From the IMG/VR virus record IMGVR_UViG_2706794698_000011: a stretch of 7,415 bases of DNA, one strand, 5' to 3'. Below are positions 1 through 7,415 of this stretch, one piece after another. The translations under genes and the position numbers were made by a program. Within the stretch, counting starts at the first letter, position 1, and each line of letters begins with the position of its first letter. The DNA is from a virus. Taxonomy: Duplodnaviria > Heunggongvirae > Uroviricota > Caudoviricetes. Below the pieces are notes generated by a model that had not been told where the DNA came from, made no database searches, and was given only the letters and a program-made list of their open reading frames with translations.

Positions 1-35
1 GGGGAATATCTCCCCGGCAGCCTTCAGGGAAAAAT

Positions 36-98
36 ATCATCAGATGGCTGCTTAAAAAAAGAACAAATGGTAGTGTCCGCTATTGCCAGTACACCTCA
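36..98. repeat. Left copy of 63-bp perfect inverted repeat (partner 7353-7415)
   Basis: Reverse complement of 7353-7415 is identical to 36-98; identity stops at pos 99 / 7352. The right copy is cut by the window end, so the repeat may be longer outward. Confidence 0.9.
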
Positions 99-297
99 TC
101 CATCACCGAAAAAAATTGGCTTTTACACCATTGGCGATAAAAGCATTTACCTGTATGACCTACGCCGCATGGATGAAATCATGGAGGCTCTTGATAATCG
201 TTCGTCGATGGATTGGTGTGTTGCTGTTCATGATATGAATGCAGGGTTTGATGAAAAGATTTTGTTCCCCTCATCAGTTGAAAGCACTGCGGGTTAA
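67..297 (+). CDS. Hypothetical small protein (76 aa)
   Basis: ORF with plausible enteric codon usage; no clear Shine-Dalgarno; first 10 codons lie inside the inverted repeat; its stop overlaps the SD of the next ORF. Confidence 0.4.
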   Translation: MVVSAIASTPHPSPKKIGFYTIGDKSIYLYDLRRMDEIMEALDNRSSMDWCVAVHDMNAGFDEKILFPSSVESTAG

Positions 298-307
298 GGA
301 GTAACAC

Positions 308-475
308 ATGACCACTATTACCAAAGAACGTATTGAATTGTTCATTAAAAACCCGCTTGAAAACGGGCTTACCCGTGGTGAACAAATGGAACTGGCACGG
401 ATTGCGCTGGCATCGCTGGAAGCAGAGCCGGTTGTGTTCTGGTTTGAAAAATATCAAGAAGGGGCTACGGCATGA
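308..475 (+). CDS. Hypothetical small protein (55 aa), paralogous to the next ORF
   Basis: ATG at 308 preceded by AGGAG (297-301); stop overlaps the next start as ATGA (472-475); shares an N-terminal MTT(I/F)T(K/R)E and an IAL(A/V)SL(E/A)AEP motif with ORF 472-816. Below the 60-aa cutoff of the ORF track. Confidence 0.55.
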
Positions 476-816
476 CGACTTTTACCAGAGAGCAGTTAAT
501 AGCTCACGCAGAGGAGACTATTGAAGCACAGAGACTGTGCATACCGGGCACAATCGACCATGACATCATCCGCACATATAAGATGGATATTGCTGTTCTG
601 GAAATCGCACTGGTATCGCTGGCAGCAGAGCCAGCCGGTAAATTGCATGAATACAAACCAGTGGGATATCAGCGTCTGGTCGATGAGTTAACCATGCTGG
701 TAAAGCAGTTAACCTGGCAACTGAGGAAAGCGAAGCCAGACTGCAAATTACCGGATAAGGCGATGAGTTATCTGGAGCGGAACGGACTGATAAGCGTGGA
801 GGATATTTTACGATGA
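472..816 (+). CDS. Hypothetical phage protein (114 aa)
   Basis: ORF in the track; start overlaps the upstream stop (ATGA); shared motif with ORF 308-475 suggests tandem duplication. Confidence 0.6.
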
Positions 817-896
817 CCTGGCCTGAAGCATTAACAACGGTAGGAATTGCGATGGCGGTGGCGCTGGTGGTGTATTCGATTTGCCGCTGGGGATAA
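813..896 (+). CDS. Putative 27-aa hydrophobic (single transmembrane-like) peptide
   Basis: ATG 813 overlaps the upstream stop (ATGA); GGAGG at 798-802; sequence [27 protein letters not shown] is mostly hydrophobic. Confidence 0.4.
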
Positions 897-903
897 AAAC
901 GGT

Positions 904-931
904 TTGCGGGAAAAGGAGAGTTAAGTAGAAT
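904..931 (+). promoter_or_regulatory. Candidate sigma70 promoter of the hok mRNA
   Basis: -35 TTGCGG (904-909), 16-nt spacer, -10 TAGAAT (926-931); predicted start near 938, giving an mRNA of about 415 nt to the terminator at 1353. Confidence 0.5.
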
Positions 932-999
932 TGCAGCGGGTGCTTGAGGCTATCTGTCTCAGGCATGAACACCAAAAGGCAGATAGAGAAAAGCCCCAG

Positions 1000-1059
1000 T
1001 TAACATTACGCGTCCGGCAAGACGCTTAACATTAATCTGAGGCTCAATCTATGAACGGC
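1000..1059 (-). ncRNA. sok: Candidate Sok-like antisense RNA (approximate ends)
   Basis: Minus-strand promoter inside mok: -35 TTGCCT (complement of 1089-1094), 17-nt spacer, -10 TAACCT (complement of 1066-1071); transcript would cover the mok start and SD; hairpin 1010-1025 on the antisense strand. Ends inferred, not measured. Confidence 0.4.
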
Positions 1060-1263
1060 AAATCTAGGTTAGCCTCTTACGTGCCGAAAGGCAAGGAGAA
1101 GCAGGCTATGAAGCAGCAAAAGGCGATGTTAATCGCCCTGATCGTCATCTGTTTAACCGTCATAGTGACGGCACTGGTAACGAGGAAAGACCTCTGCGAG
1201 GTACGAATTCGAACCGGCCAGACGGAGGTCGCTGTCTTCACAGCTTACGAACCTGAGGAGTAA
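1051..1263 (+). CDS. mok: mok-like overlapping reading frame (modulator of killing)
   Basis: 70-codon ORF whose last 51 codons are hok in the same frame; GAGG at 1039-1042; architecture matches the hok/mok/sok loci. Confidence 0.6.
   Translation: MNGKSRLASYVPKGKEKQAMKQQKAMLIALIVICLTVIVTALVTRKDLCEVRIRTGQTEVAVFTAYEPEE
1108..1263 (+). CDS. hok: Hok/Gef-family type I toxin (51 aa)
   Basis: MKQQKAMLIALIVICLTVIVTALVTRKDLCEVRIRTGQTEVAVFTAYEPEE carries the Hok signature (TM helix, TRK.LCE.R.R.G..EVA.F.AYE); AGGAG at 1094-1098. Confidence 0.9.
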   Translation: MKQQKAMLIALIVICLTVIVTALVTRKDLCEVRIRTGQTEVAVFTAYEPEE

Positions 1264-1332
1264 GAGACCAGGCGGGGGAGAAATCCCTCGCCACCTCTGA
1301 TGGGGCAGGCATCCTCAATGCACCCACACTTA

Positions 1333-1353
1333 ACCCGCTTCGGCGGGTTTTTG
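1333..1353 (+). terminator. Intrinsic terminator of the hok mRNA
   Basis: 6-bp stem ACCCGC/GCGGGT with TTCG loop followed by a T-run (1348-1360). Confidence 0.8.
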
Positions 1354-1483
1354 TTTTTATTTTCAACGCGTTTGAAGTTTTAGATGGTGCCGGAATAGAA
1401 TCAAAAATACTTAAGTAGCGCGCAGGGAGAAGAGGGATGGACCCCGAACAGGGGAGTGCTATTTATCTGGAAGGATTCTGTTG

Positions 1484-1765
1484 ATGAAAATCGAAGAATT
1501 ACGTGAAATTTTTAGTGAAGATGGCCTCTATACTGTGCGCGTTGAGAATGGCGCTATTGTCAGCCACTGCCTTCCAGACTACACAATTCTGATAATTCAG
1601 CCGTCTTTGCCAGCAGGCACGGGCGGCGCTCTCACGCATTTAAATCTGATTGGTACCAGCATCCCCCATGCACTGAAGAACAGGCCGAATGGCTCATTCA
1701 GTGTTACCGCAGGCGCGGATGCGAGGTTAAAAAAGCCCTTAGCCTCGACTACCGTCACTGGATAA
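1484..1765 (+). CDS. Hypothetical small protein (93 aa in the zero frame; possible 118-aa form ending at 1839 after a -1 shift at 1729-1735)
   Basis: ATG 1484 with AAGGA 8 nt upstream; the -1 frame is open from 1546 to a TAA at 1837-1839 that overlaps the next gene start (TAATGTG). Confidence 0.55.
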   Translation: MKIEELREIFSEDGLYTVRVENGAIVSHCLPDYTILIIQPSLPAGTGGALTHLNLIGTSIPHALKNRPNGSFSVTAGADARLKKPLASTTVTG

Positions 1766-1840
1766 TCTCCGTCAGGCTCCCTTACTCCGAACGGCCAACG
1801 CGTCCGTCCCGCACATTCCAGCAACGGATCTGGAGGTAAT

Positions 1841-2899
1841 GTGCGGGTATTACTTCGACCTGTTCTGGTACCGGAACTCGGTCTGGTTATCGTTAAGCCA
1901 GGCCGTGAATCAATGTCAGCATTCCATAACGGCAGAATACTGGTGGAGCCGGAACCAAAAAGCATGCGTAATCTGCCGTCCGGGGTCGTTCCTGCCGCTC
2001 GCCAGCCGCTGGTGGAAGACAAAACATTGCTGCCGTTTTTCAGTAACGCACGGGTGATTCGTGCTGCTGGTGGTGCTGGTGCATTGTCTGACTGGCTGTT
2101 GCGCCATATTAAATCCTGCCAGTGGCCACACGGCGATTATCATCACAGCGAAACCGTCATTCACCGTTATGGTACCGGCGCAATGGTGTTGTGCTGGCAC
2201 TGCGACAACCAGCTGCGTGACCAGACATCCGAATCACTCGAGCAACTTGCTCATCAAAACCTGTCAGCATGGATGATTGACGTCATCGGTCACGCAATAA
2301 GCGGTACGCAGGAGCGTGAATTATCTCTGGCTGAATTATCCTGGTGGGCGGTCCGCAATCAGGTGGCGGACGCGCTACCGGAAGCGGTATTACGTCGTTC
2401 GCTGGGGTTGCGTGCGGAAAAAATTCGCTCTGTGTACAGTGAAAGCGACATCATACCGGGAGAGCAGACAGCCACCAGCATACTGAAGCAGCGCACAAAA
2501 AATATTGCGTTACTGCCTCACGTCCACCAGCAACAGAACCCACCACAGGAAAAGACGGTGGTCAGCATTGCCGTTGATCCGGAGTCACCGGCTCAGTATC
2601 TCCAGCGCCAGAAATCACAACGGGAAGAGATGCCTGTATACACGCGCTGGGTAAAAACGCAGAAATGCATGACGTGTGGCAATCAGGCAGATGATCCGCA
2701 TCACATCATTGGTCATGGACTGGGAGGGATGGGAACAAAGGCTGATGATTTGTTTGTTATTCCGTTATGCCGTAAATGCCGTAACGAACTACATGCCGGA
2801 GTAAAAGATTTTGAAGAGAAACACGGCAGTCAGCTGTTGTTGCTGATTCGTTTTTTAATGCACGCGAGAAATTCGGGTGTTCTGAAGTGGAAAGCATAA
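1841..2899 (+). CDS. DUF968/NinG-like phage protein with C-terminal Cys/His (HNH or zinc-ribbon-like) cluster, 352 aa
   Basis: Long ORF with enteric codon usage; GTG 1841 preceded by GGAGG (1832-1836); C-terminus CMTCGNQADDPHHIIGHGLGGMGTKADDLFVIPLCRKCRNELH resembles the metal-binding motif of NinG/YbcO-type phage proteins. Family assignment is from memory. Confidence 0.6.
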   Translation: MRVLLRPVLVPELGLVIVKPGRESMSAFHNGRILVEPEPKSMRNLPSGVVPAARQPLVEDKTLLPFFSNARVIRAAGGAGALSDWLLRHIKSCQWPHGDYHHSETVIHRYGTGAMVLCWHCDNQLRDQTSESLEQLAHQNLSAWMIDVIGHAISGTQERELSLAELSWWAVRNQVADALPEAVLRRSLGLRAEKIRSVYSESDIIPGEQTATSILKQRTKNIALLPHVHQQQNPPQEKTVVSIAVDPESPAQYLQRQKSQREEMPVYTRWVKTQKCMTCGNQADDPHHIIGHGLGGMGTKADDLFVIPLCRKCRNELHAGVKDFEEKHGSQLLLLIRFLMHARNSGVLKWKA

Positions 2900-3280
2900 A
2901 TGACCGAGCGCATAGAATTTGTTTTACCTTACCCGCCGACGGTGAACACTTACTGGCGTCGTCGTGGCAGCACATATTTTGTATCAAAAGCCGGGGAGCG
3001 TTATCGCCGGGCAGTGGCGCTTATTGTTCGCCAGCAGCGGCTGAAATTAAGCCTGTCCGGAAGGTTGGCAATAAAAATTATTGCAGAACCACCGGATAAG
3101 CGCCGCCGTGACCTGGACAATATTCTGAAAGCGCCGCTGGATGCGCTGACGCATGCGGGGTTGCTAATGGACGATGAGCAGTTTGATGAAATCAATATCG
3201 TTCGTGCTCAGCCAGTATCTGGTGGACGTCTGGGGGTGAAGATTTATCCCATAATGCTTGAAGGGCAGGTCAAAAAATGA
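2900..3280 (+). CDS. rusA: RusA-family Holliday junction resolvase (126 aa)
   Basis: LPYPPTVN...PDKRRRDLDNILKAPLDALTHAGLLMDDEQ matches RusA conserved blocks including the catalytic acidic residues (DLDN, DD); start abuts the upstream stop. Confidence 0.85.
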   Translation: MTERIEFVLPYPPTVNTYWRRRGSTYFVSKAGERYRRAVALIVRQQRLKLSLSGRLAIKIIAEPPDKRRRDLDNILKAPLDALTHAGLLMDDEQFDEINIVRAQPVSGGRLGVKIYPIMLEGQVKK

Positions 3281-4026
3281 AACTGGAAGATTTACCGAAA
3301 TACTACTCCCCAAAATCCCCCGGCCTGACTGATGCATCGGCCTCAACGTCGAAAGATGCGCTGAGTATCACTGATGTGATGGCCGCGCAGGGCATGACAC
3401 AGAATCGGGCTGAGATGGGGGTTTCTGCGTTCCTTGGGAAAATGGGCATTAGTATGAATGACAGAGAGCGGGCAACAGAATTGCTGACAGAATATGCACT
3501 CAGTCGGTGTGATCGCGTGGCGGCGTTAAGAAAACTCCCGGCAGAAATAAAACCGGCAGTGATGCGTATTATGGCTTCGTATGCGTTTGAAGATTATGCC
3601 CGTAGCGCGGCGAGCAAAAAACANNNNNNNNNNNNNNNNNNNNNNNNNNNNNNNNNNNNNNNNNNNNNNNNNNNNNNNNNNNNNNNNNNNNNNNNNNNNN
3701 NNNNNNNNNNNNNNNNNNNNNNNNNNNNNNNNNNNNNNNNNNNNNNNNNNNNNNNNNNNNNNNNNNNNNNNNNNNNNNNNNNNNNNNNNNNNNNNNNNNN
3801 NNNNNNNNNNNNNNNNNNNNNNNNNNNNNNNNNNNNNNNNNNNNNNNNNNNNNNNNNNNNNNNNNNNNNNNNNNNNNNNNNNNNNNNNNNNATATGCGAG
3901 GTGACAAACCAGATAACACGCGCGTCATGGGAAAAAACAGTTAAGAAATTTTATGATGCGCTGGTGACCCGGTTTGATATTGAAGAAGCATGGGCTGAGC
4001 GGCAGTTAAAAAAGGTAACTAGGTAA
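3277..4026 (+). CDS. Q: Lambda-Q-family late antitermination protein (central 268 nt masked)
   Basis: N-terminus KYYSPKSPGLTD...DVMAAQGM and C-terminus KTVKKFYDALVTRFDIEE...KKVTR parallel lambda Q (FHSPKSP..., TVKPLYDALV...AVTR); ATGA overlap with rusA; frame is maintained across the mask 3624-3891. Confidence 0.8.
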   Translation: MKLEDLPKYYSPKSPGLTDASASTSKDALSITDVMAAQGMTQNRAEMGVSAFLGKMGISMNDRERATELLTEYALSRCDRVAALRKLPAEIKPAVMRIMASYAFEDYARSAASKKXXXXXXXXXXXXXXXXXXXXXXXXXXXXXXXXXXXXXXXXXXXXXXXXXXXXXXXXXXXXXXXXXXXXXXXXXXXXXXXXXXXXXXXXXXICEVTNQITRASWEKTVKKFYDALVTRFDIEEAWAERQLKKVTR

Positions 4027-4031
4027 CAAGG

Positions 4032-4059
4032 TTGATTTTTCCGGAATCTGTGGTAAATT
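4032..4059 (+). promoter_or_regulatory. Candidate late promoter (pR'-like) with probable Q-utilisation region just downstream
   Basis: -35 TTGATT (4032-4037), 16-nt spacer, extended -10 TGG-TAAATT (4051-4059), placed immediately after Q as in lambdoid phages. Confidence 0.5.
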
Positions 4060-4107
4060 CGTTATAACGATGGGCGTTTTATGCCTGACGTTAGAAGAGT
4101 TTCTACA

Positions 4108-4131
4108 ACCCGCCGCCGAGCGGGTTTTTTA
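4108..4131 (+). terminator. Intrinsic terminator (tR'-like) downstream of the late promoter
   Basis: Stem ACCCGC/GCGGGT (4108-4113 / 4120-4125) with a 6-nt loop, followed by TTTTTT. Confidence 0.75.
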
Positions 4132-4250
4132 TGACTGAAATCGCGTCAGTACAGTAAACGCGCTGGTGGCGGTGAATACCTGTCTTTCAGCTTGCTGGCT
4201 TTTTCGACAAGAGTTATTGGTGTGTCACGTTAACCGGAAAAGGAAAAGAC

Positions 4251-4448
4251 ATGCTAAAACAGCAGGATATGACAGAAACCGCCAGAGTGGTGTTTAATGA
4301 ATTAAGCGTTACCGAACCGGCGACAGTCGGGGAGATAGCGCAGAATACTTACCTTTCACGCGAACGCTGCCAGTTAATACTGACCCAGCTGGTTATGGCG
4401 GGTCTGGCAGACTATCAGTTCGGTTGTTACAGACGCCTTCCGCAGTGA
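4251..4448 (+). CDS. Small putative winged-helix DNA-binding protein (65 aa), possibly PapI/FaeA-like
   Basis: AAAGGAAAAG RBS; TVGEIAQNTYLSRERCQLILTQLVMAGLA resembles a helix-turn-helix recognition region; family resemblance is by eye only. Confidence 0.5.
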   Translation: MLKQQDMTETARVVFNELSVTEPATVGEIAQNTYLSRERCQLILTQLVMAGLADYQFGCYRRLPQ

Positions 4449-4461
4449 AGGCTTTTTTATT
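4435..4461 (+). terminator. Intrinsic terminator overlapping the stop codon of ORF 4251-4448
   Basis: Stem GCCTTC/GAAGGC (4435-4440 / 4447-4452), loop CGCAGT, followed by TTTTTTATTT. Confidence 0.75.
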
Positions 4462-4476
4462 TGTGGTAAATGGGCG

Positions 4477-4505
4477 GCTGGTGGGTGTTAGGGGCACCCA
4501 CCAGC
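4477..4505. repeat. Perfect 11-bp stem-loop carrying a Chi octamer on each arm
   Basis: GCTGGTGGGTG (4477-4487), loop TTAGGGG, CACCCACCAGC (4495-4505); no downstream T-run. Confidence 0.7.
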
Positions 4506-4858
4506 CATCTGCTCATGCGTTGGGTTCACAAGCAAACCTCAGGCCCACTGCTTTGCGCAAAAGCAGAATGAGCCTATCAGAGACAGGCTTAATGATCCAT
4601 GCTTAATANNNNNNNNNNNNNNNNNNNNNNNNNNNNNNNNNNNNNNNNNNNNNNNNNNNNNNNNNNNNNNNNNNNNNNNNNNNNNNNNNNNNNNNNNNNN
4701 NNNNNNNNNNNNNNNNNNNNNNNNNNNNNNNNNNNNNNNNNNNNNNNNNNNNNNNNNNNNNNNNNNNNNNNNNNNNNNNNNNNNNNNNNNNNNNNNNNNN
4801 NNNNNNNNNNNNNNNNNNNNNNNNNNNNNNNNNNNNNNNNNNNNNNNNNNNNNNNNNN

Positions 4859-5661
4859 CATCTGATATCGAAATCATGATGCGTGAACGCTTCAGTGTGC
4901 TGAACCATATTATCTGGGCGAAGCCGTCCGGACGCTGGAACGGATGCAACAAGGAAAGCCTGCGGGCGTATTTCCCCGCCACAGAGCGCATTCTGTTCGC
5001 GGAACATTATCAGGGGCCGTATCGTCCGAAAGATGCCGGGTATGCGGCGAAGGGCAGTGCACTGAAACAGCATGTGATGGCCCCGCTGATTTCTTACTTT
5101 CGTGATGCGCGAGCTGCCCTGGGGATAACGGCAAAACAGATTGCAGATGCCACAGGAAAGAAAAACATGGCGTCGCACTGGTTCAGTGCCGGTCAGTGGC
5201 AGTTGCCGAATGAAAGCGATTATCTGAAATTACAGGCGCTGTTTGCCCGGGTGGCAGAAGAGAAGCATCGGCGTGGTGAACTGGAAAAGCTCCACCACCA
5301 GCTGGTGGATACGTATACCTCACTGAACCGGCAGTATGCGGAGCTGCTGAGTGAATATAAACATCTGCGGCGGTATTTTGGCGTGACGGTGCAGGTGCCG
5401 TATACCGATGTGTGGACGCATAAACCGGTGCAGTTCTATCCCGGGAAACATCCGTGCGAAAAACCGGCAGAAATGCTGCAGCAGATAATCAGCGCTAGCA
5501 GTCGTCCGGGTGACCTGATTGCAGATTTTTTCATGGGGTTGGGTTCGACAGTGAAAGCGGCACTGGCGCTCGGGCGTCGTGCAATTGGCGTTGAGCTGGA
5601 GACTGAACGTTTTGAGCAGACGGTTCGGGAAGTACAGGATTTAGTCAGCCAGAACGGATGA
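4859..5661 (+). CDS. DNA amino-methyltransferase (N6-adenine/N4-cytosine type), 3' portion; N-terminus inside mask 4609-4858
   Basis: HPCEKP followed by DFFMGLGST (FxGxG AdoMet motif) near the C-terminus, the arrangement of beta-class amino-MTases; frame is open back to the mask with no start codon between 4492 and 4608, so the start is probably masked. Confidence 0.75.
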
Positions 5662-5700
5662 TATTGAAGAATTAATTACGCGTCGTTATTATGCGGCTCC

Positions 5701-5776
5701 CGGCCCTTTAGCTCAGTGGTGAGAGCGAGCGACTCATAATCGCCAGGTCGCTGGTTCAAATCCAGCAAGGGCCACC
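5701..5776 (+). tRNA. tRNA with CAU anticodon, closest by eye to tRNA-Ile2 (lysidine) of the ileX type; tRNA-Met not excluded
   Basis: Full cloverleaf can be drawn: acceptor GGCCCTT/AAGGGCC, D-arm GCTC...GAGC, anticodon loop CTCATAA, T-arm GCTGG-TTCAAAT-CCAGC, 3' ACCA. Confidence 0.85.
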
Positions 5777-5783
5777 ATCACAT

Positions 5784-5818
5784 ACCGCCATTAGCTCATC
5801 AGGAAAGAGCGCCAGCCT
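5784..5818 (+). tRNA. Probable 5' part of a second tRNA running into mask 5819-6068
   Basis: TAGCTC D-stem with GAGC partner (5793-5796 / 5806-5809), then CCAGC-CT consistent with an anticodon stem and C32-U33; anticodon masked. Confidence 0.35.
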
Positions 5819-6148
5819 NNNNNNNNNNNNNNNNNNNNNNNNNNNNNNNNNNNNNNNNNNNNNNNNNNNNNNNNNNNNNNNNNNNNNNNNNNNNNNNNNN
5901 NNNNNNNNNNNNNNNNNNNNNNNNNNNNNNNNNNNNNNNNNNNNNNNNNNNNNNNNNNNNNNNNNNNNNNNNNNNNNNNNNNNNNNNNNNNNNNNNNNNN
6001 NNNNNNNNNNNNNNNNNNNNNNNNNNNNNNNNNNNNNNNNNNNNNNNNNNNNNNNNNNNNNNNNNNNNTTTTAAATACTTCACAATTCAGGCGGTTGACT
6101 GTTGTCTGGTTTGCGGGGAGTTTGTTAAAAGAAACTGGCATGGTGAAT

Positions 6149-6292
6149 CCCCCTGTGCGGAGGGGCAATCAGCGAGTAGGTATATGGGATAATCGCGGAT
6201 TCAGGTGCTGGTACTGAATTCACCGGGAGGCACCCGGCATCATGCAATGGCACATAGCGCCACTCTCCAGCCCTCTCCGGAGGGGCTTTTCT
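6149..6292 (+). other. GC-rich hairpin-dense non-coding stretch (candidate structured RNA or regulatory leader)
   Basis: Four local hairpins (6150-6165, 6197-6221, 6223-6237, 6270-6286), the last followed by CTTTTCT; no ORF over 30 codons on either strand. Confidence 0.3.
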
Positions 6293-6681
6293 GTGCCGGA
6301 TACATCACAGTTTCTGGAACCTTAGGTACTACAGTATCAGTCAGGGTGCTATATTTTCAGATGTGATGAAAGCCTGTCAGCAGGCAGGGCGTATCGGAAA
6401 TGACCCAGTAGAGAAAACNNNNNNNNNNNNNNNNNNNNNNNNNNNNNNNNNNNNNNNNNNNNNNNNNNNNNNNNNNNNNNNNNNNNNNNNNNNNNNNNNN
6501 NNNNNNNNNNNNNNNNNNNNNNNNNNNNNNNNNNNNNNNNNNNNNNNNNNNNNNNNNNNNNNNNNNNNNNNNNNNNNNNNNNNNNNNNNNNNNNNNNNNN
6601 NNNNNNNNNNNNNNNNNNNNNNNNNNNNNNNNNNNNNNNNNNNNNNNNNNNNNNNNNNNNNNNNNNNNNNNNNNNNNNNNN

Positions 6682-6981
6682 TTGCAGAGTGCAACGGTTA
6701 TTAAAGCATTCATTCAATACGTTATCTGTATTTGTAGGGCATTCCTGGCTATTTTTGATTGAATTCCAGAATGTTTTATTGAATGGTACTACGTTGTAAA
6801 TGGTTACAGGTAGCACTTTGTTATTGAGCATGATGCCTGTGTGAGTCAGTGTAAATATACTTTCAGGAGGTAAGAAAGCATCCGATTGATACCAGATTAT
6901 TAATTTTATTTTACTCCATATGACTGAAAAAGATATTCCGCATGATGGCTGGATAACTGTATCAATCACAATCCACTTCAT
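6682..6981 (-). CDS. AT-rich hypothetical protein (at least 100 aa visible; 3' part enters mask 6419-6681)
   Basis: ATG at 6981 with AAGGAAAC SD (complement of 6985-6992); about 35 percent GC versus over 50 percent around it; AT-biased codons (ATA, AAA, TTA, AAT); uninterrupted 100-codon ORF in AT-rich DNA. Confidence 0.6.
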
Positions 6982-7243
6982 TTAGTTTCCTTNNNNNNNN
7001 NNNNNNNNNNNNNNNNNNNNNNNNNNNNNNNNNNNNNNNNNNNNNNNNNNNNNNNNNNNNNNNNNNNNNNNNNNNNNNNNNNNNNNNNNNNNNNNNNNNN
7101 NNNNNNNNNNNNNNNNNNNNNNNNNNNNNNNNNNNNNNNNNNNNNNNNNNNNNNNNNNNNNNNNNNNNNNNNNNNNNNNNNNNNNNNNNNNNNNNNNNNN
7201 NNNNNNNNNNNNNNNNNNNNNNNNNNNNNNNNNNNNNNNNNNT

Positions 7244-7399
7244 GATGTTGTCAGGGCGGCGCCGCCGTCAGATCTTGCGGAAAAGCTGACACATAAACTG
7301 AAAGAGGGCTGGCAGCCGTTTGGTAGTCCGGTGGCCATAACCCCTTATACCCTGAGGTGTACTGGCAATAGCGGACACTACCATTTGTTCTTTTTTTAA
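7244..7399 (+). CDS. 3' end of a hypothetical protein (5' part inside mask 6993-7242)
   Basis: Open frame from the mask edge to TAA 7397-7399 with enteric codon usage (...KLKEGWQPFGSPVAITPYTLRCTGNSGHYHLFFF); the last 14 codons lie in the inverted repeat. Confidence 0.5.
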   Translation, partial: DVVRAAPPSDLAEKLTHKLKEGWQPFGSPVAITPYTLRCTGNSGHYHLFFF

Positions 7400-7415
7400 G
7401 CAGCCATCTGATGAT
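7353..7415. repeat. Right copy of 63-bp perfect inverted repeat (partner 36-98)
   Basis: Exact reverse-complement match to 36-98; contains the last 14 codons and stop of the + strand ORF ending at 7399. Confidence 0.9.

What the first reader, a model, noticed from the sequence alone, without database searches (positions are those of the whole stretch)
36..98. 63-bp perfect inverted repeat at both window edges, fused to different genes
36-98 is the exact reverse complement of 7353-7415. At the right end the repeat supplies the last 14 codons plus stop of a + strand gene (7244-7399). At the left end the same DNA, inverted, supplies the 5' leader and first 10 codons (MVVSAIASTP) of ORF 67-297, while on the minus strand only a 15-codon remnant of the right-hand gene's C-terminus remains, preceded by a stop. 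That pattern suggests an inversion or recombination junction, or an assembly artefact at a repeat. The repeat may extend beyond the window end.
Basis: seen in the sequence. Interest (0 to 1): 0.5.

Follow-up and report, generated by a model that had tools for sequence, protein, structure and literature searches.

The report
Two IS600 insertion-sequence ends, facing inward
The 63-bp inverted repeat is the same end of two copies of IS600, a common Shigella/E. coli jumping gene, inserted in opposite orientations into two genes of a defective prophage; it is ordinary and already well known.

Summary
In detail: 36-98 is the exact reverse complement of 7353-7415, and chance would give none. The repeat is not an invertase site or a special junction. 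Each arm is the right terminus (IRR plus the 3' end of the transposase gene) of IS600, a 1264-bp IS3-family element. All of window 1-98 is 100% identical to IS600 ends found at 6104 places in 2887 E. coli genomes. The 63-bp length only reflects where the window stops. The left copy interrupts an 88-aa phage gene, and an ATG inside the IS end happens to be in frame with the rest of it. The right copy interrupts a DUF1737/nanS-p esterase gene at codon 43. Both junctions occur in complete, probably Shigella sonnei, chromosomes, so neither is an assembly join. There, however, they lie in two different prophage remnants, about 670 kb apart in the one chromosome where both were located. Neither copy keeps its original outer flank, and one strain carries a recombinant IS600 joining the two loci. 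So IS600-mediated rearrangement is real. The window's N runs do not keep true lengths. One of them hides a switch between the two prophage types, so the 7.3-kb linkage of the arms is unproven. Already known; low interest.

The parts
1..98 (+). Last 98 nt of an IS600 copy (IS positions 1167-1264). The transposase reads left to right. The element's tip (TGAGG... on the minus strand) is at base 98.
   Evidence: 100% identity over all 98 nt to annotated IS600 / IS3-family transposase loci in 3433 E. coli records. Aligned to the full 1264-bp IS600 in L001:1601-2864.
2..55 (+). 3' end of the IS600 transposase gene (orfB): the last 17 codons, GNISPAAFREKYHQMAA, plus the stop TAA at 53-55.
   Evidence: The translation is identical to the end of the annotated IS600 transposase CDS in L001.
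36..98 (+). Left arm of the reported inverted repeat: the part of the left IS600 end that the truncated right copy can mirror.
67..297 (+). Chimeric ORF of 76 aa: an ATG plus 10 codons from the IS600 end, one hybrid codon, then the last 65 codons of an 88-aa phage gene.
   Evidence: The native gene (L002 8936-9199, WP_000224233.1) reads MATLTKKERAWLNELQEVLDRCPSPKK... and the window matches it from base 99 = L002 9001. The exact 76-aa product is recorded in 795 blocks of public assemblies. No promoter-like site on the + strand in 1-400. No Shine-Dalgarno-like motif before the ATG (read from the sequence). Expression not shown.
99..101 (.). TCC, the 3-bp target-site copy on the inner side of the left IS600.
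   Evidence: In L006, L007 and L008 the displaced 5' part of the 88-aa gene ends at L002 9003, so it carries the same TCC (L002 9001-9003) that opens the interior. IS600 makes 3-bp duplications in L001 (GCG) and at IS600_B (TCC).
7243..7352 (+). 5' part (visible from codon 7 to codon 43) of a DUF1737 / nanS-p-type esterase gene, cut by IS600. The start codon, at about 7226, is masked.
   Evidence: 100% identity to L004 9001-9113. The native gene continues ...ACC CTG ATG CAG GCG.... In L005 the intact homologue is an 1857-nt SASA family carbohydrate esterase gene.
7353..7415 (-). Last 63 nt of a second IS600 copy in the opposite orientation (its transposase would read right to left). This is the right arm, cut by the window end.
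   Evidence: The same junction continues into IS600 in L016 (107 nt) and into full copies in L027, L028, L030 and L031.
6419..6681 (.). Fourth N run. It hides the switch from 'locus A' prophage sequence (1-6418) to 'locus C' sequence (6682-7415), and possibly a third IS600 copy and/or a scaffold gap.
   Evidence: Window 6069-6418 is 100% identical to L052, which runs 58 nt further into IS600. Window 6682-6992 is 100% identical to L017, L019 and L027. No complete E. coli genome has both parts together.

Best explanation
Both arms are the right terminus of IS600, a 1264-bp IS3-family insertion sequence abundant in Shigella and present in about half of complete E. coli genomes. Two copies lie in opposite orientations with their right ends (IRR) pointing into the window. 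Any two copies placed this way give a perfect inverted repeat as long as the sequence shown: 63 nt here only because the window stops, 1264 nt in reality. The left copy was inserted into an 88-aa prophage gene with a 3-bp TCC target duplication. The right copy was inserted into a DUF1737/nanS-p gene after ...TATACCC. The two 'gene fusions' are accidents of insertion. One frame of the IS600 end is open to the tip and contains an ATG, which here is in frame with the truncated gene. The other strand of the same end closes the truncated DUF1737 frame after 14 codons. The DNA is most likely from Shigella sonnei or a very close relative, where multi-copy IS600 breaks short-read contigs and serves as a substrate for homologous recombination that inverts and reshuffles the chromosome. 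Shown: the identity of the arms, the exact junctions, the empty sites, the presence of both junctions in complete chromosomes, and one recombinant IS600. Inferred: the order of events, the source organism, and that the window is a short-read contig or scaffold ending in IS copies.
For: Identity: window 1-98 is 100% identical to IS600 ends at 6104 places in 2887 of 5426 E. coli genomes, annotated 'IS3-like element IS600 family transposase'. Which end: the match covers the 3' end of the transposase CDS. The IS600 left end (IRL) matches only 24 of the first 50 positions, so both arms must be IRR. Breakpoints: prophage homology starts at 99 and ends at 7352-7355. Uninterrupted alleles of both genes lack the 63 bp. 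Reality of the junctions: the left fusion ORF is in 795 assembly blocks, 83 of them with contigs over 1 Mb, and where checked (L006, L007, L008, L011, L014) it follows a full 1264-bp IS600. The right junction is in 7 chromosome-size contigs, named Shigella sonnei by the source, and in 4 IMG/VR contigs. Insertion signature: TCC is retained on the displaced flank of the left copy. IS600_B has a TCC/TCC duplication, with the empty site in L007. Contig-end behaviour: L016 is a whole contig with 107 nt of IS600 at each end. Most contigs carrying the left ORF are 2-10 kb. Literature: IS600 is one of five IS expanded in all Shigella species (PMC7373316). IS-flanked inversions confirmed by long reads occur in S. 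sonnei (PMC12795559).
Against: Nothing contradicts the identification of the arms. The open points concern context. The full elements, their left ends and outer flanks lie outside the window. In the complete chromosomes examined, the two junctions lie in two different prophage remnants, 670 kb apart in GCA_016613025.1 where both were located. The window changes from one prophage type to the other under an N run. Physical linkage of the two arms at ~7 kb is therefore not established. It is supported only by two draft records (L016, and L025+L018) that switch type at other points.
Confidence: 0.97

Rival explanations
1. The window is a chimeric contig or scaffold. Each junction is real, but the two arms are not ~7 kb apart on one molecule. 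An IS600-bounded piece of prophage 'locus A' has been joined to a small piece of 'locus C' (iraM, DUF1737', IS600) through repeats shared by the two prophages or through IS600 itself. This rival concerns only the linkage and is compatible with the best explanation.
For: In GCA_016613025.1 the two junctions are 670 kb apart (L015, L031). Window 1-6418 is A-type and 6682-7415 is C-type, with the switch under mask 4. L052, which is 100% identical to window 6069-6418, continues 58 nt into IS600. IMG/VR records 2690316200_000011 and 2681813267_000008 hold that piece together with the iraM-DUF1737'-IS600 piece. Their two loci sum to the record length minus 11-12 nt, and the larger locus stops at IS600 position 127, which looks like a scaffold gap. 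Three draft records join A-left to C-right at three different points. No complete E. coli genome has 6291-6418 near iraM.
Against: L016 is a gap-free 6236-nt contig with both junctions. Lambdoid prophages in one cell do recombine naturally, so a real hybrid prophage is plausible. The N runs appear to be masks of arbitrary length and not scaffold gaps, so nothing shows that a gap exists in the source.
Confidence: 0.4
2. The two arms are recombination sites of a programmed invertible segment (a Hin/Gin/Pin-type or tyrosine-recombinase switch) that flips the 7.3-kb interval to control the flanking genes.
For: A perfect inverted repeat flanks a discrete segment, and different reading frames are created at each end.
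Against: The arms are 100% IS600, a multi-copy mobile element. The visible ORFs of the window have non-recombinase homologue annotations in intact prophages. Uninterrupted alleles of both flanking genes lack the repeat. In all ten complete-genome loci with the left junction, the interior has the same orientation relative to its downstream nanS-p and holin genes.
Confidence: 0.01
3. The two inverted IS600 copies and the DNA between them form a composite transposon that moves the hok/sok, DUF968, RusA, Q and methylase genes as a unit.
For: Two copies of one IS bracket a gene cluster, which is the formal architecture of a composite transposon.
Against: The interior is collinear with ordinary lambdoid prophages at its native position. 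The outer flanks of the two copies in complete chromosomes are unrelated DNA, with no shared target duplication (AAAATT.../CTAATC... against the expected flanks). The right-hand copy differs between strains: IS600_B in most, none at that site in L007 and L012, which fits independent insertions.
Confidence: 0.02

Closest known systems
IS600 (IS3 family), first described in Shigella sonnei
   Same: The arms are 100% identical to the right terminal 63/98 nt of annotated IS600 copies. This includes the orfB stop and the TGAGGTGTACTGG... tip. Related copies show a 3-bp target duplication.
   Different: Nothing in the visible part differs. Only the terminal 98 and 63 nt are inside the window, so the orfA/orfB frameshift region and IRL of these two particular copies are not seen here.
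IS-mediated chromosomal inversions and prophage decay in Shigella (Hawkey et al. 2020, PMC7373316; S. sonnei reference strain set 2026, PMC12795559)
   Same: Multi-copy IS600 interrupts prophage genes. The outer flanks are rearranged. A recombinant IS600 (L014) joins two loci that are 670 kb apart in another strain.
   Different: I did not find this particular pair of insertions, or this inversion, named in those papers. Only one of the two recombinant junctions expected from an inversion was observed here.
Site-specific invertible segments (Hin/Gin/Pin; fim switch)
   Same: Only the geometry is shared: inverted repeats bracketing a segment.
   Different: Those use short dedicated sites (about 26 bp for the Hin/Gin family, from my own knowledge) and a dedicated recombinase. 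Here the repeats are whole IS copies, no such recombinase is evident, and flipping of the 7.3-kb interval is not seen.

Membership tests
IS600 (IS3 family insertion sequence) | Terminal sequence identical or nearly identical to the IS600 right inverted repeat (TGAGGTGTACTGGCAATAGCGGACAC...) | tested here: met
   Both arms are 100% identical to the IRR end of IS600 in L001. They differ from IRL at 26 of the first 50 positions.
IS600 (IS3 family insertion sequence) | Transposase gene (orfB, DDE/rve domain) ending about 43 nt from the right tip | tested here: met
   Window 2-55 translates to GNISPAAFREKYHQMAA*, identical to the end of the annotated IS600 transposase. Only the last 17 codons are inside the window.
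IS600 (IS3 family insertion sequence) | Full element of about 1264 bp with orfA-orfB, a programmed -1 frameshift and an IRL | not testable with these tools
   This lies outside the window. In five complete-chromosome loci with the identical left junction (L006, L007, L008, L011, L014), a full 1264-bp IS600 (99.7-99.9%) precedes it. L027, L028, L030 and L031 show a full copy at the right junction. RefSeq annotates 'programmed frameshift' for IS600.
IS600 (IS3 family insertion sequence) | 3-bp target-site duplication flanking the element | tested here: inconclusive
   The outer flanks are not in the window. For the left copy, the displaced 5' gene fragment in L006, L007 and L008 ends with the same TCC. 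For the right copy, no partner flank (CCC+TGATGCAGG) was found. IS600_B and the L001 copy show clean 3-bp duplications.
Programmed invertible DNA segment (serine or tyrosine invertase switch) | Dedicated recombinase gene in or next to the segment, and short specific crossover sites | tested here: not met
   The visible ORFs have non-recombinase homologue annotations (88-aa fragment, two small ORFs, HokD, DUF968, RusA, Q, 65-aa ORF, DNA methyltransferase, IraM, DUF1737). The masked stretches are unseen. The arms are IS ends.
Programmed invertible DNA segment (serine or tyrosine invertase switch) | Both orientations of the segment found among closely related genomes | tested here: not met
   All ten complete-genome loci with the left junction have the interior in the same orientation relative to the downstream nanS-p and holin genes. 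The only orientation change detected is a much larger IS600 x IS600 recombinant.
Composite transposon | The whole IS-cargo-IS unit flanked by one target duplication and found at more than one genomic site | tested here: not met
   The outer flanks are unrelated and carry no shared duplication. The cargo sits in native prophage order.

The most novel reading that the evidence does not exclude
The ATG inside the IS600 right end acts as a start codon that rescues expression of the decapitated 88-aa phage gene, giving a chimeric 76-aa protein retained across a Shigella sonnei lineage. Alternatively, recombination between the inward-facing IS600 copies works as a recurrent switch that reorients the hok/sok, Q and methylase block. 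My data exclude neither, but nothing supports them beyond the ORF being intact and widespread, which clonal inheritance explains.
Probability: 0.03. Interest if true: 0.3.

Novelty: already known. Interest (0 to 1): 0.07.

Why it matters
It matters mainly as a caution. A perfect inverted repeat at the edges of a short contig, apparently fused to two genes, is the standard signature of a multi-copy insertion sequence breaking a short-read assembly. It is not a new recombination system. For anyone studying this strain, the two IS600 copies mark inactivated prophage genes (an 88-aa early-region gene and the nanS-p-type esterase). They also mark places where the chromosome has been rearranged, so gene order around them cannot be taken from draft assemblies.

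Tried and rejected
**Searches that found nothing**
- Exact searches for the right and left junctions in genome contigs found nothing, so the source contig and organism title could not be retrieved there.
- A search for the expected outer side of the right insertion (IRL tip + CCC + TGATGCAGGCGATTGC) in viral contigs found nothing. In complete chromosomes the flank there is unrelated, so a simple insertion with an intact duplication could not be shown for the right copy.
- A search of complete E. coli genomes for the combination 6291-6418 plus iraM plus DUF1737 found none.

**Blocked or failed steps**
I reached the same junction through a homology search (P0001). P0001 differs from the window's ORF by one T in a T run after FFF.

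**Ideas rejected**
- Invertase switch, composite transposon, and chance repeat: reasons are given under the rival explanations.
- That the arms are one IRL and one IRR of a single element: rejected because IRL and IRR match at only 24 of their first 50 positions.
- An outward promoter in the IS end: the consensus scan found none on the + strand. That scan is weak evidence either way.

Full report
**1. The observation**

The window contains a 63-nt perfect inverted repeat, 36-98 against 7353-7415.
- A search with the 63-mer allowing 3 mismatches finds only these two sites, with 0.00 expected by chance.
- Two qualifications are needed. The right arm ends on the last base of the window, so its length is set by the window. 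And the window holds five N runs: 3624-3891, 4609-4858, 5819-6068, 6419-6681 and 6993-7242.

**2. What the arms are**

Read outward from its inner boundary, each arm begins TGAGGTGTACTGGCAATAGCGGACAC.
- All 98 nt at the left edge (window 1-98) are 100% identical to sequences at 6104 places in 2887 of 5426 complete E. coli genomes. These are annotated as IS3-like element IS600 family transposase.
- In a full copy (L001:1601-2864, 1264 bp, flanked by a 3-bp GCG duplication), the matched end overlaps the 3' end of the transposase CDS.
- Window 2-55 translates to GNISPAAFREKYHQMAA*, the C-terminus of that transposase.
- The other end of IS600 (IRL) agrees with this end at only 24 of the first 50 positions.
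- Both arms are therefore the right end (IRR) of IS600, from two copies in opposite orientation with their right ends pointing into the window.
- The true repeat is the whole element. The left copy already shows 98 matching bases, because the window reaches further into it.

**3. The junctions**

- *Left.* Prophage homology begins at base 99. In an intact prophage (L002) this falls 65 nt into an 88-aa gene, MATLTKKERAWLNELQEVLDRCPSPKK.... One reading frame of the IS600 end is open to the tip and has an ATG 32 nt from it. Here that frame continues into the truncated gene and gives the 76-aa ORF 67-297.
- *Right.* Homology to DUF1737 genes ends at 7352-7355. The native gene continues ACC CTG ATG CAG, so the TGA shared with the IS tip is a 3-nt coincidence. 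The IS then closes the frame after 14 codons. In L005 the intact gene is an 1857-nt SASA-family esterase gene of the nanS-p type.
- *Interior.* 99-7352 is collinear, on one strand, with lambdoid prophages. Its features, in order:
  - two small ORFs
  - hok/sok
  - DUF968
  - RusA
  - antiterminator Q
  - a 65-aa ORF
  - a DNA methyltransferase
  - tRNA genes
  - a leader/terminator RNA
  - iraM on the minus strand

**4. Are the junctions real?**

Yes.
- The exact 76-aa product is recorded in 795 blocks of public assemblies, 83 of them with contigs over 1 Mb. In the loci checked, a complete IS600 lies directly upstream.
- The right junction is present in four IMG/VR contigs and in seven chromosome-size contigs. 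Their protein (P0001) is named Shigella sonnei by its source.
- Neither junction was seen in complete E. coli genomes.
- The window is 98.3-100% identical, block by block, to those chromosomes. So the source is probably S. sonnei or a close relative; this is an inference.
- Most contigs carrying the left ORF are 2-10 kb long. L016 is a whole 6236-nt contig with 107 nt of IS600 at both ends. This is the usual result of a multi-copy IS breaking short-read assemblies.

**5. Rearrangement**

In the complete chromosomes the two junctions belong to two different prophage remnants.
- *Locus A:* ompW ... DUF977(-) IS600_A(+) 88aa' hok DUF968 RusA Q methylase tRNAs hairpin X IS600_B(-) nanS-p.
- *Locus C:* IS21 RusA Q DUF3927 iraM DUF1737' IS600_C(-), then phage genes, yecN, cmoA and cmoB.
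- In GCA_016613025.1 they are about 670 kb apart, with their right ends facing each other (L015, L031).
- IS600_B is a clean insertion with a TCC duplication; L007 has the empty site.
- IS600_A and IS600_C have both lost their original outer flanks.
- The 5' part of the 88-aa gene still ends in the TCC target copy. It lies inverted, 2.2-2.6 kb away, and in L006 it is fused to the 3' end of an integrase gene beside ompW.
- In L014, the IS600 next to the window's left junction carries, on its other side, a 40-nt flank identical to that of IS600_C in four other strains. That is the product expected from homologous recombination between inverted IS600 copies. I did not check the reciprocal junction.
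- This agrees with published work on IS expansion and IS-flanked inversions in Shigella (PMC7373316; PMC12795559).

**6. An unresolved point about the window itself**

- The N runs do not keep true lengths. Against comparators 99.9-100% identical on both sides, 268 N stands for 340 nt, 250 for 246, and 250 for 266; elsewhere 250 N stands for 169 or 789 nt.
- Window 1-6418 is locus A type. Positions 6069-6418 are 100% identical to L052, which continues 58 nt into IS600.
- Window 6682-7415 is locus C type (6682-6992 is 100% identical to L017, L019 and L027). The switch lies under the fourth N run.
- Two IMG/VR records hold both pieces. In them, the A piece stops at IS600 position 127 and 11-12 nt of the record are unaccounted for, which looks like a scaffold gap.
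- No complete E. coli genome has the combination.
- Two other draft records (L016; L025+L018) join A-left to C-right at other points.
- So the window may be a real hybrid prophage, or a join of two IS600-bounded fragments. I put about 0.4 on the latter. This does not affect what the arms are.

**7. Verdict**

The repeat is real and far beyond chance, but it is the right end of two IS600 copies. This is a known element behaving in a known way. Novelty: already known. Interest: low.

Noticed in passing
window 938-1263: A hok/sok type I toxin-antitoxin module. Rfam sok matches 938-1113 at 112 bits. The Hok-family ORF is 1051-1263, and homologues annotate the shorter HokD.
   Followed up: partly
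window 6109-6298: Strong Rfam match to the sRNA family STnc100 (122 bits against a gathering score of 47). It ends in the hairpin GCCCTCTCCGGAGGGGC plus a T run. It lies downstream of Q and the tRNAs, so it is probably the late-operon leader/terminator transcript of this lambdoid prophage.
   Followed up: no
window 5702-5818: A tRNA with anticodon CAT is called tRNA-Met by ARAGORN but annotated tRNA-Ile in RefSeq homologues, where two tRNA-Arg genes follow. In the window, sequence after 5818 is masked.
   Followed up: partly
window N runs 3624-3891, 4609-4858, 5819-6068, 6419-6681, 6993-7242: N-run lengths do not equal the lengths of the sequence they replace in near-identical relatives: 340, 246, 169 or 789, unknown, and 266 nt. 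The methyltransferase frame is broken across the second run. Distances and frames across masks are unreliable.
   Followed up: yes
window 6291-6418 against 6682-6992: The sequence type switches under the fourth mask, from the locus A spacer (which runs into IS600_B in L006 and L052) to locus C iraM. This could be a hidden third IS600 copy, a scaffold gap, or a real hybrid.
   Followed up: partly
L014 8709-10072 compared with L027 11361-11430: A recombinant IS600. Its IRL flank is identical to the locus C flank and its IRR flank is the locus A interior. This implies recombination between inverted IS600 copies that lie 670 kb apart in GCA_016613025.1.
   Followed up: partly
L006 6224-6700 (minus strand): The displaced first 23 codons of the 88-aa gene are fused in frame to the C-terminal part of a lambda-type integrase next to ompW. 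This indicates an inversion plus deletion of the prophage early region, with the breakpoint exactly at the former IS600 left tip.
   Followed up: partly
L027 10128-10224 against window 1-98: In the S. sonnei chromosomes L027 and L029, the IS600_C end aligns to window 1-98 over 97 nt at 98.98%. This is apparently one T fewer in the terminal T run, since P0001 reads FFFKQPSDDIFP where the window has FFF-stop. It could be a real polymorphism or a homopolymer sequencing error.
   Followed up: no
window 401-429 and 604-632: A 29-nt direct repeat (86%) lies within two adjacent small ORFs (308-475 and 472-816). It encodes a shared motif, [10 protein letters not shown] / [10 protein letters not shown], and the ORFs are probably paralogues.
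   Followed up: no
L003 8984-10616: In E. coli strain 05_3471, another IS600 copy interrupts a DUF1737/DUF6645 gene in the same orientation but at a different position, about 430 nt into the gene. This gene family has been hit by IS600 more than once.
   Followed up: no
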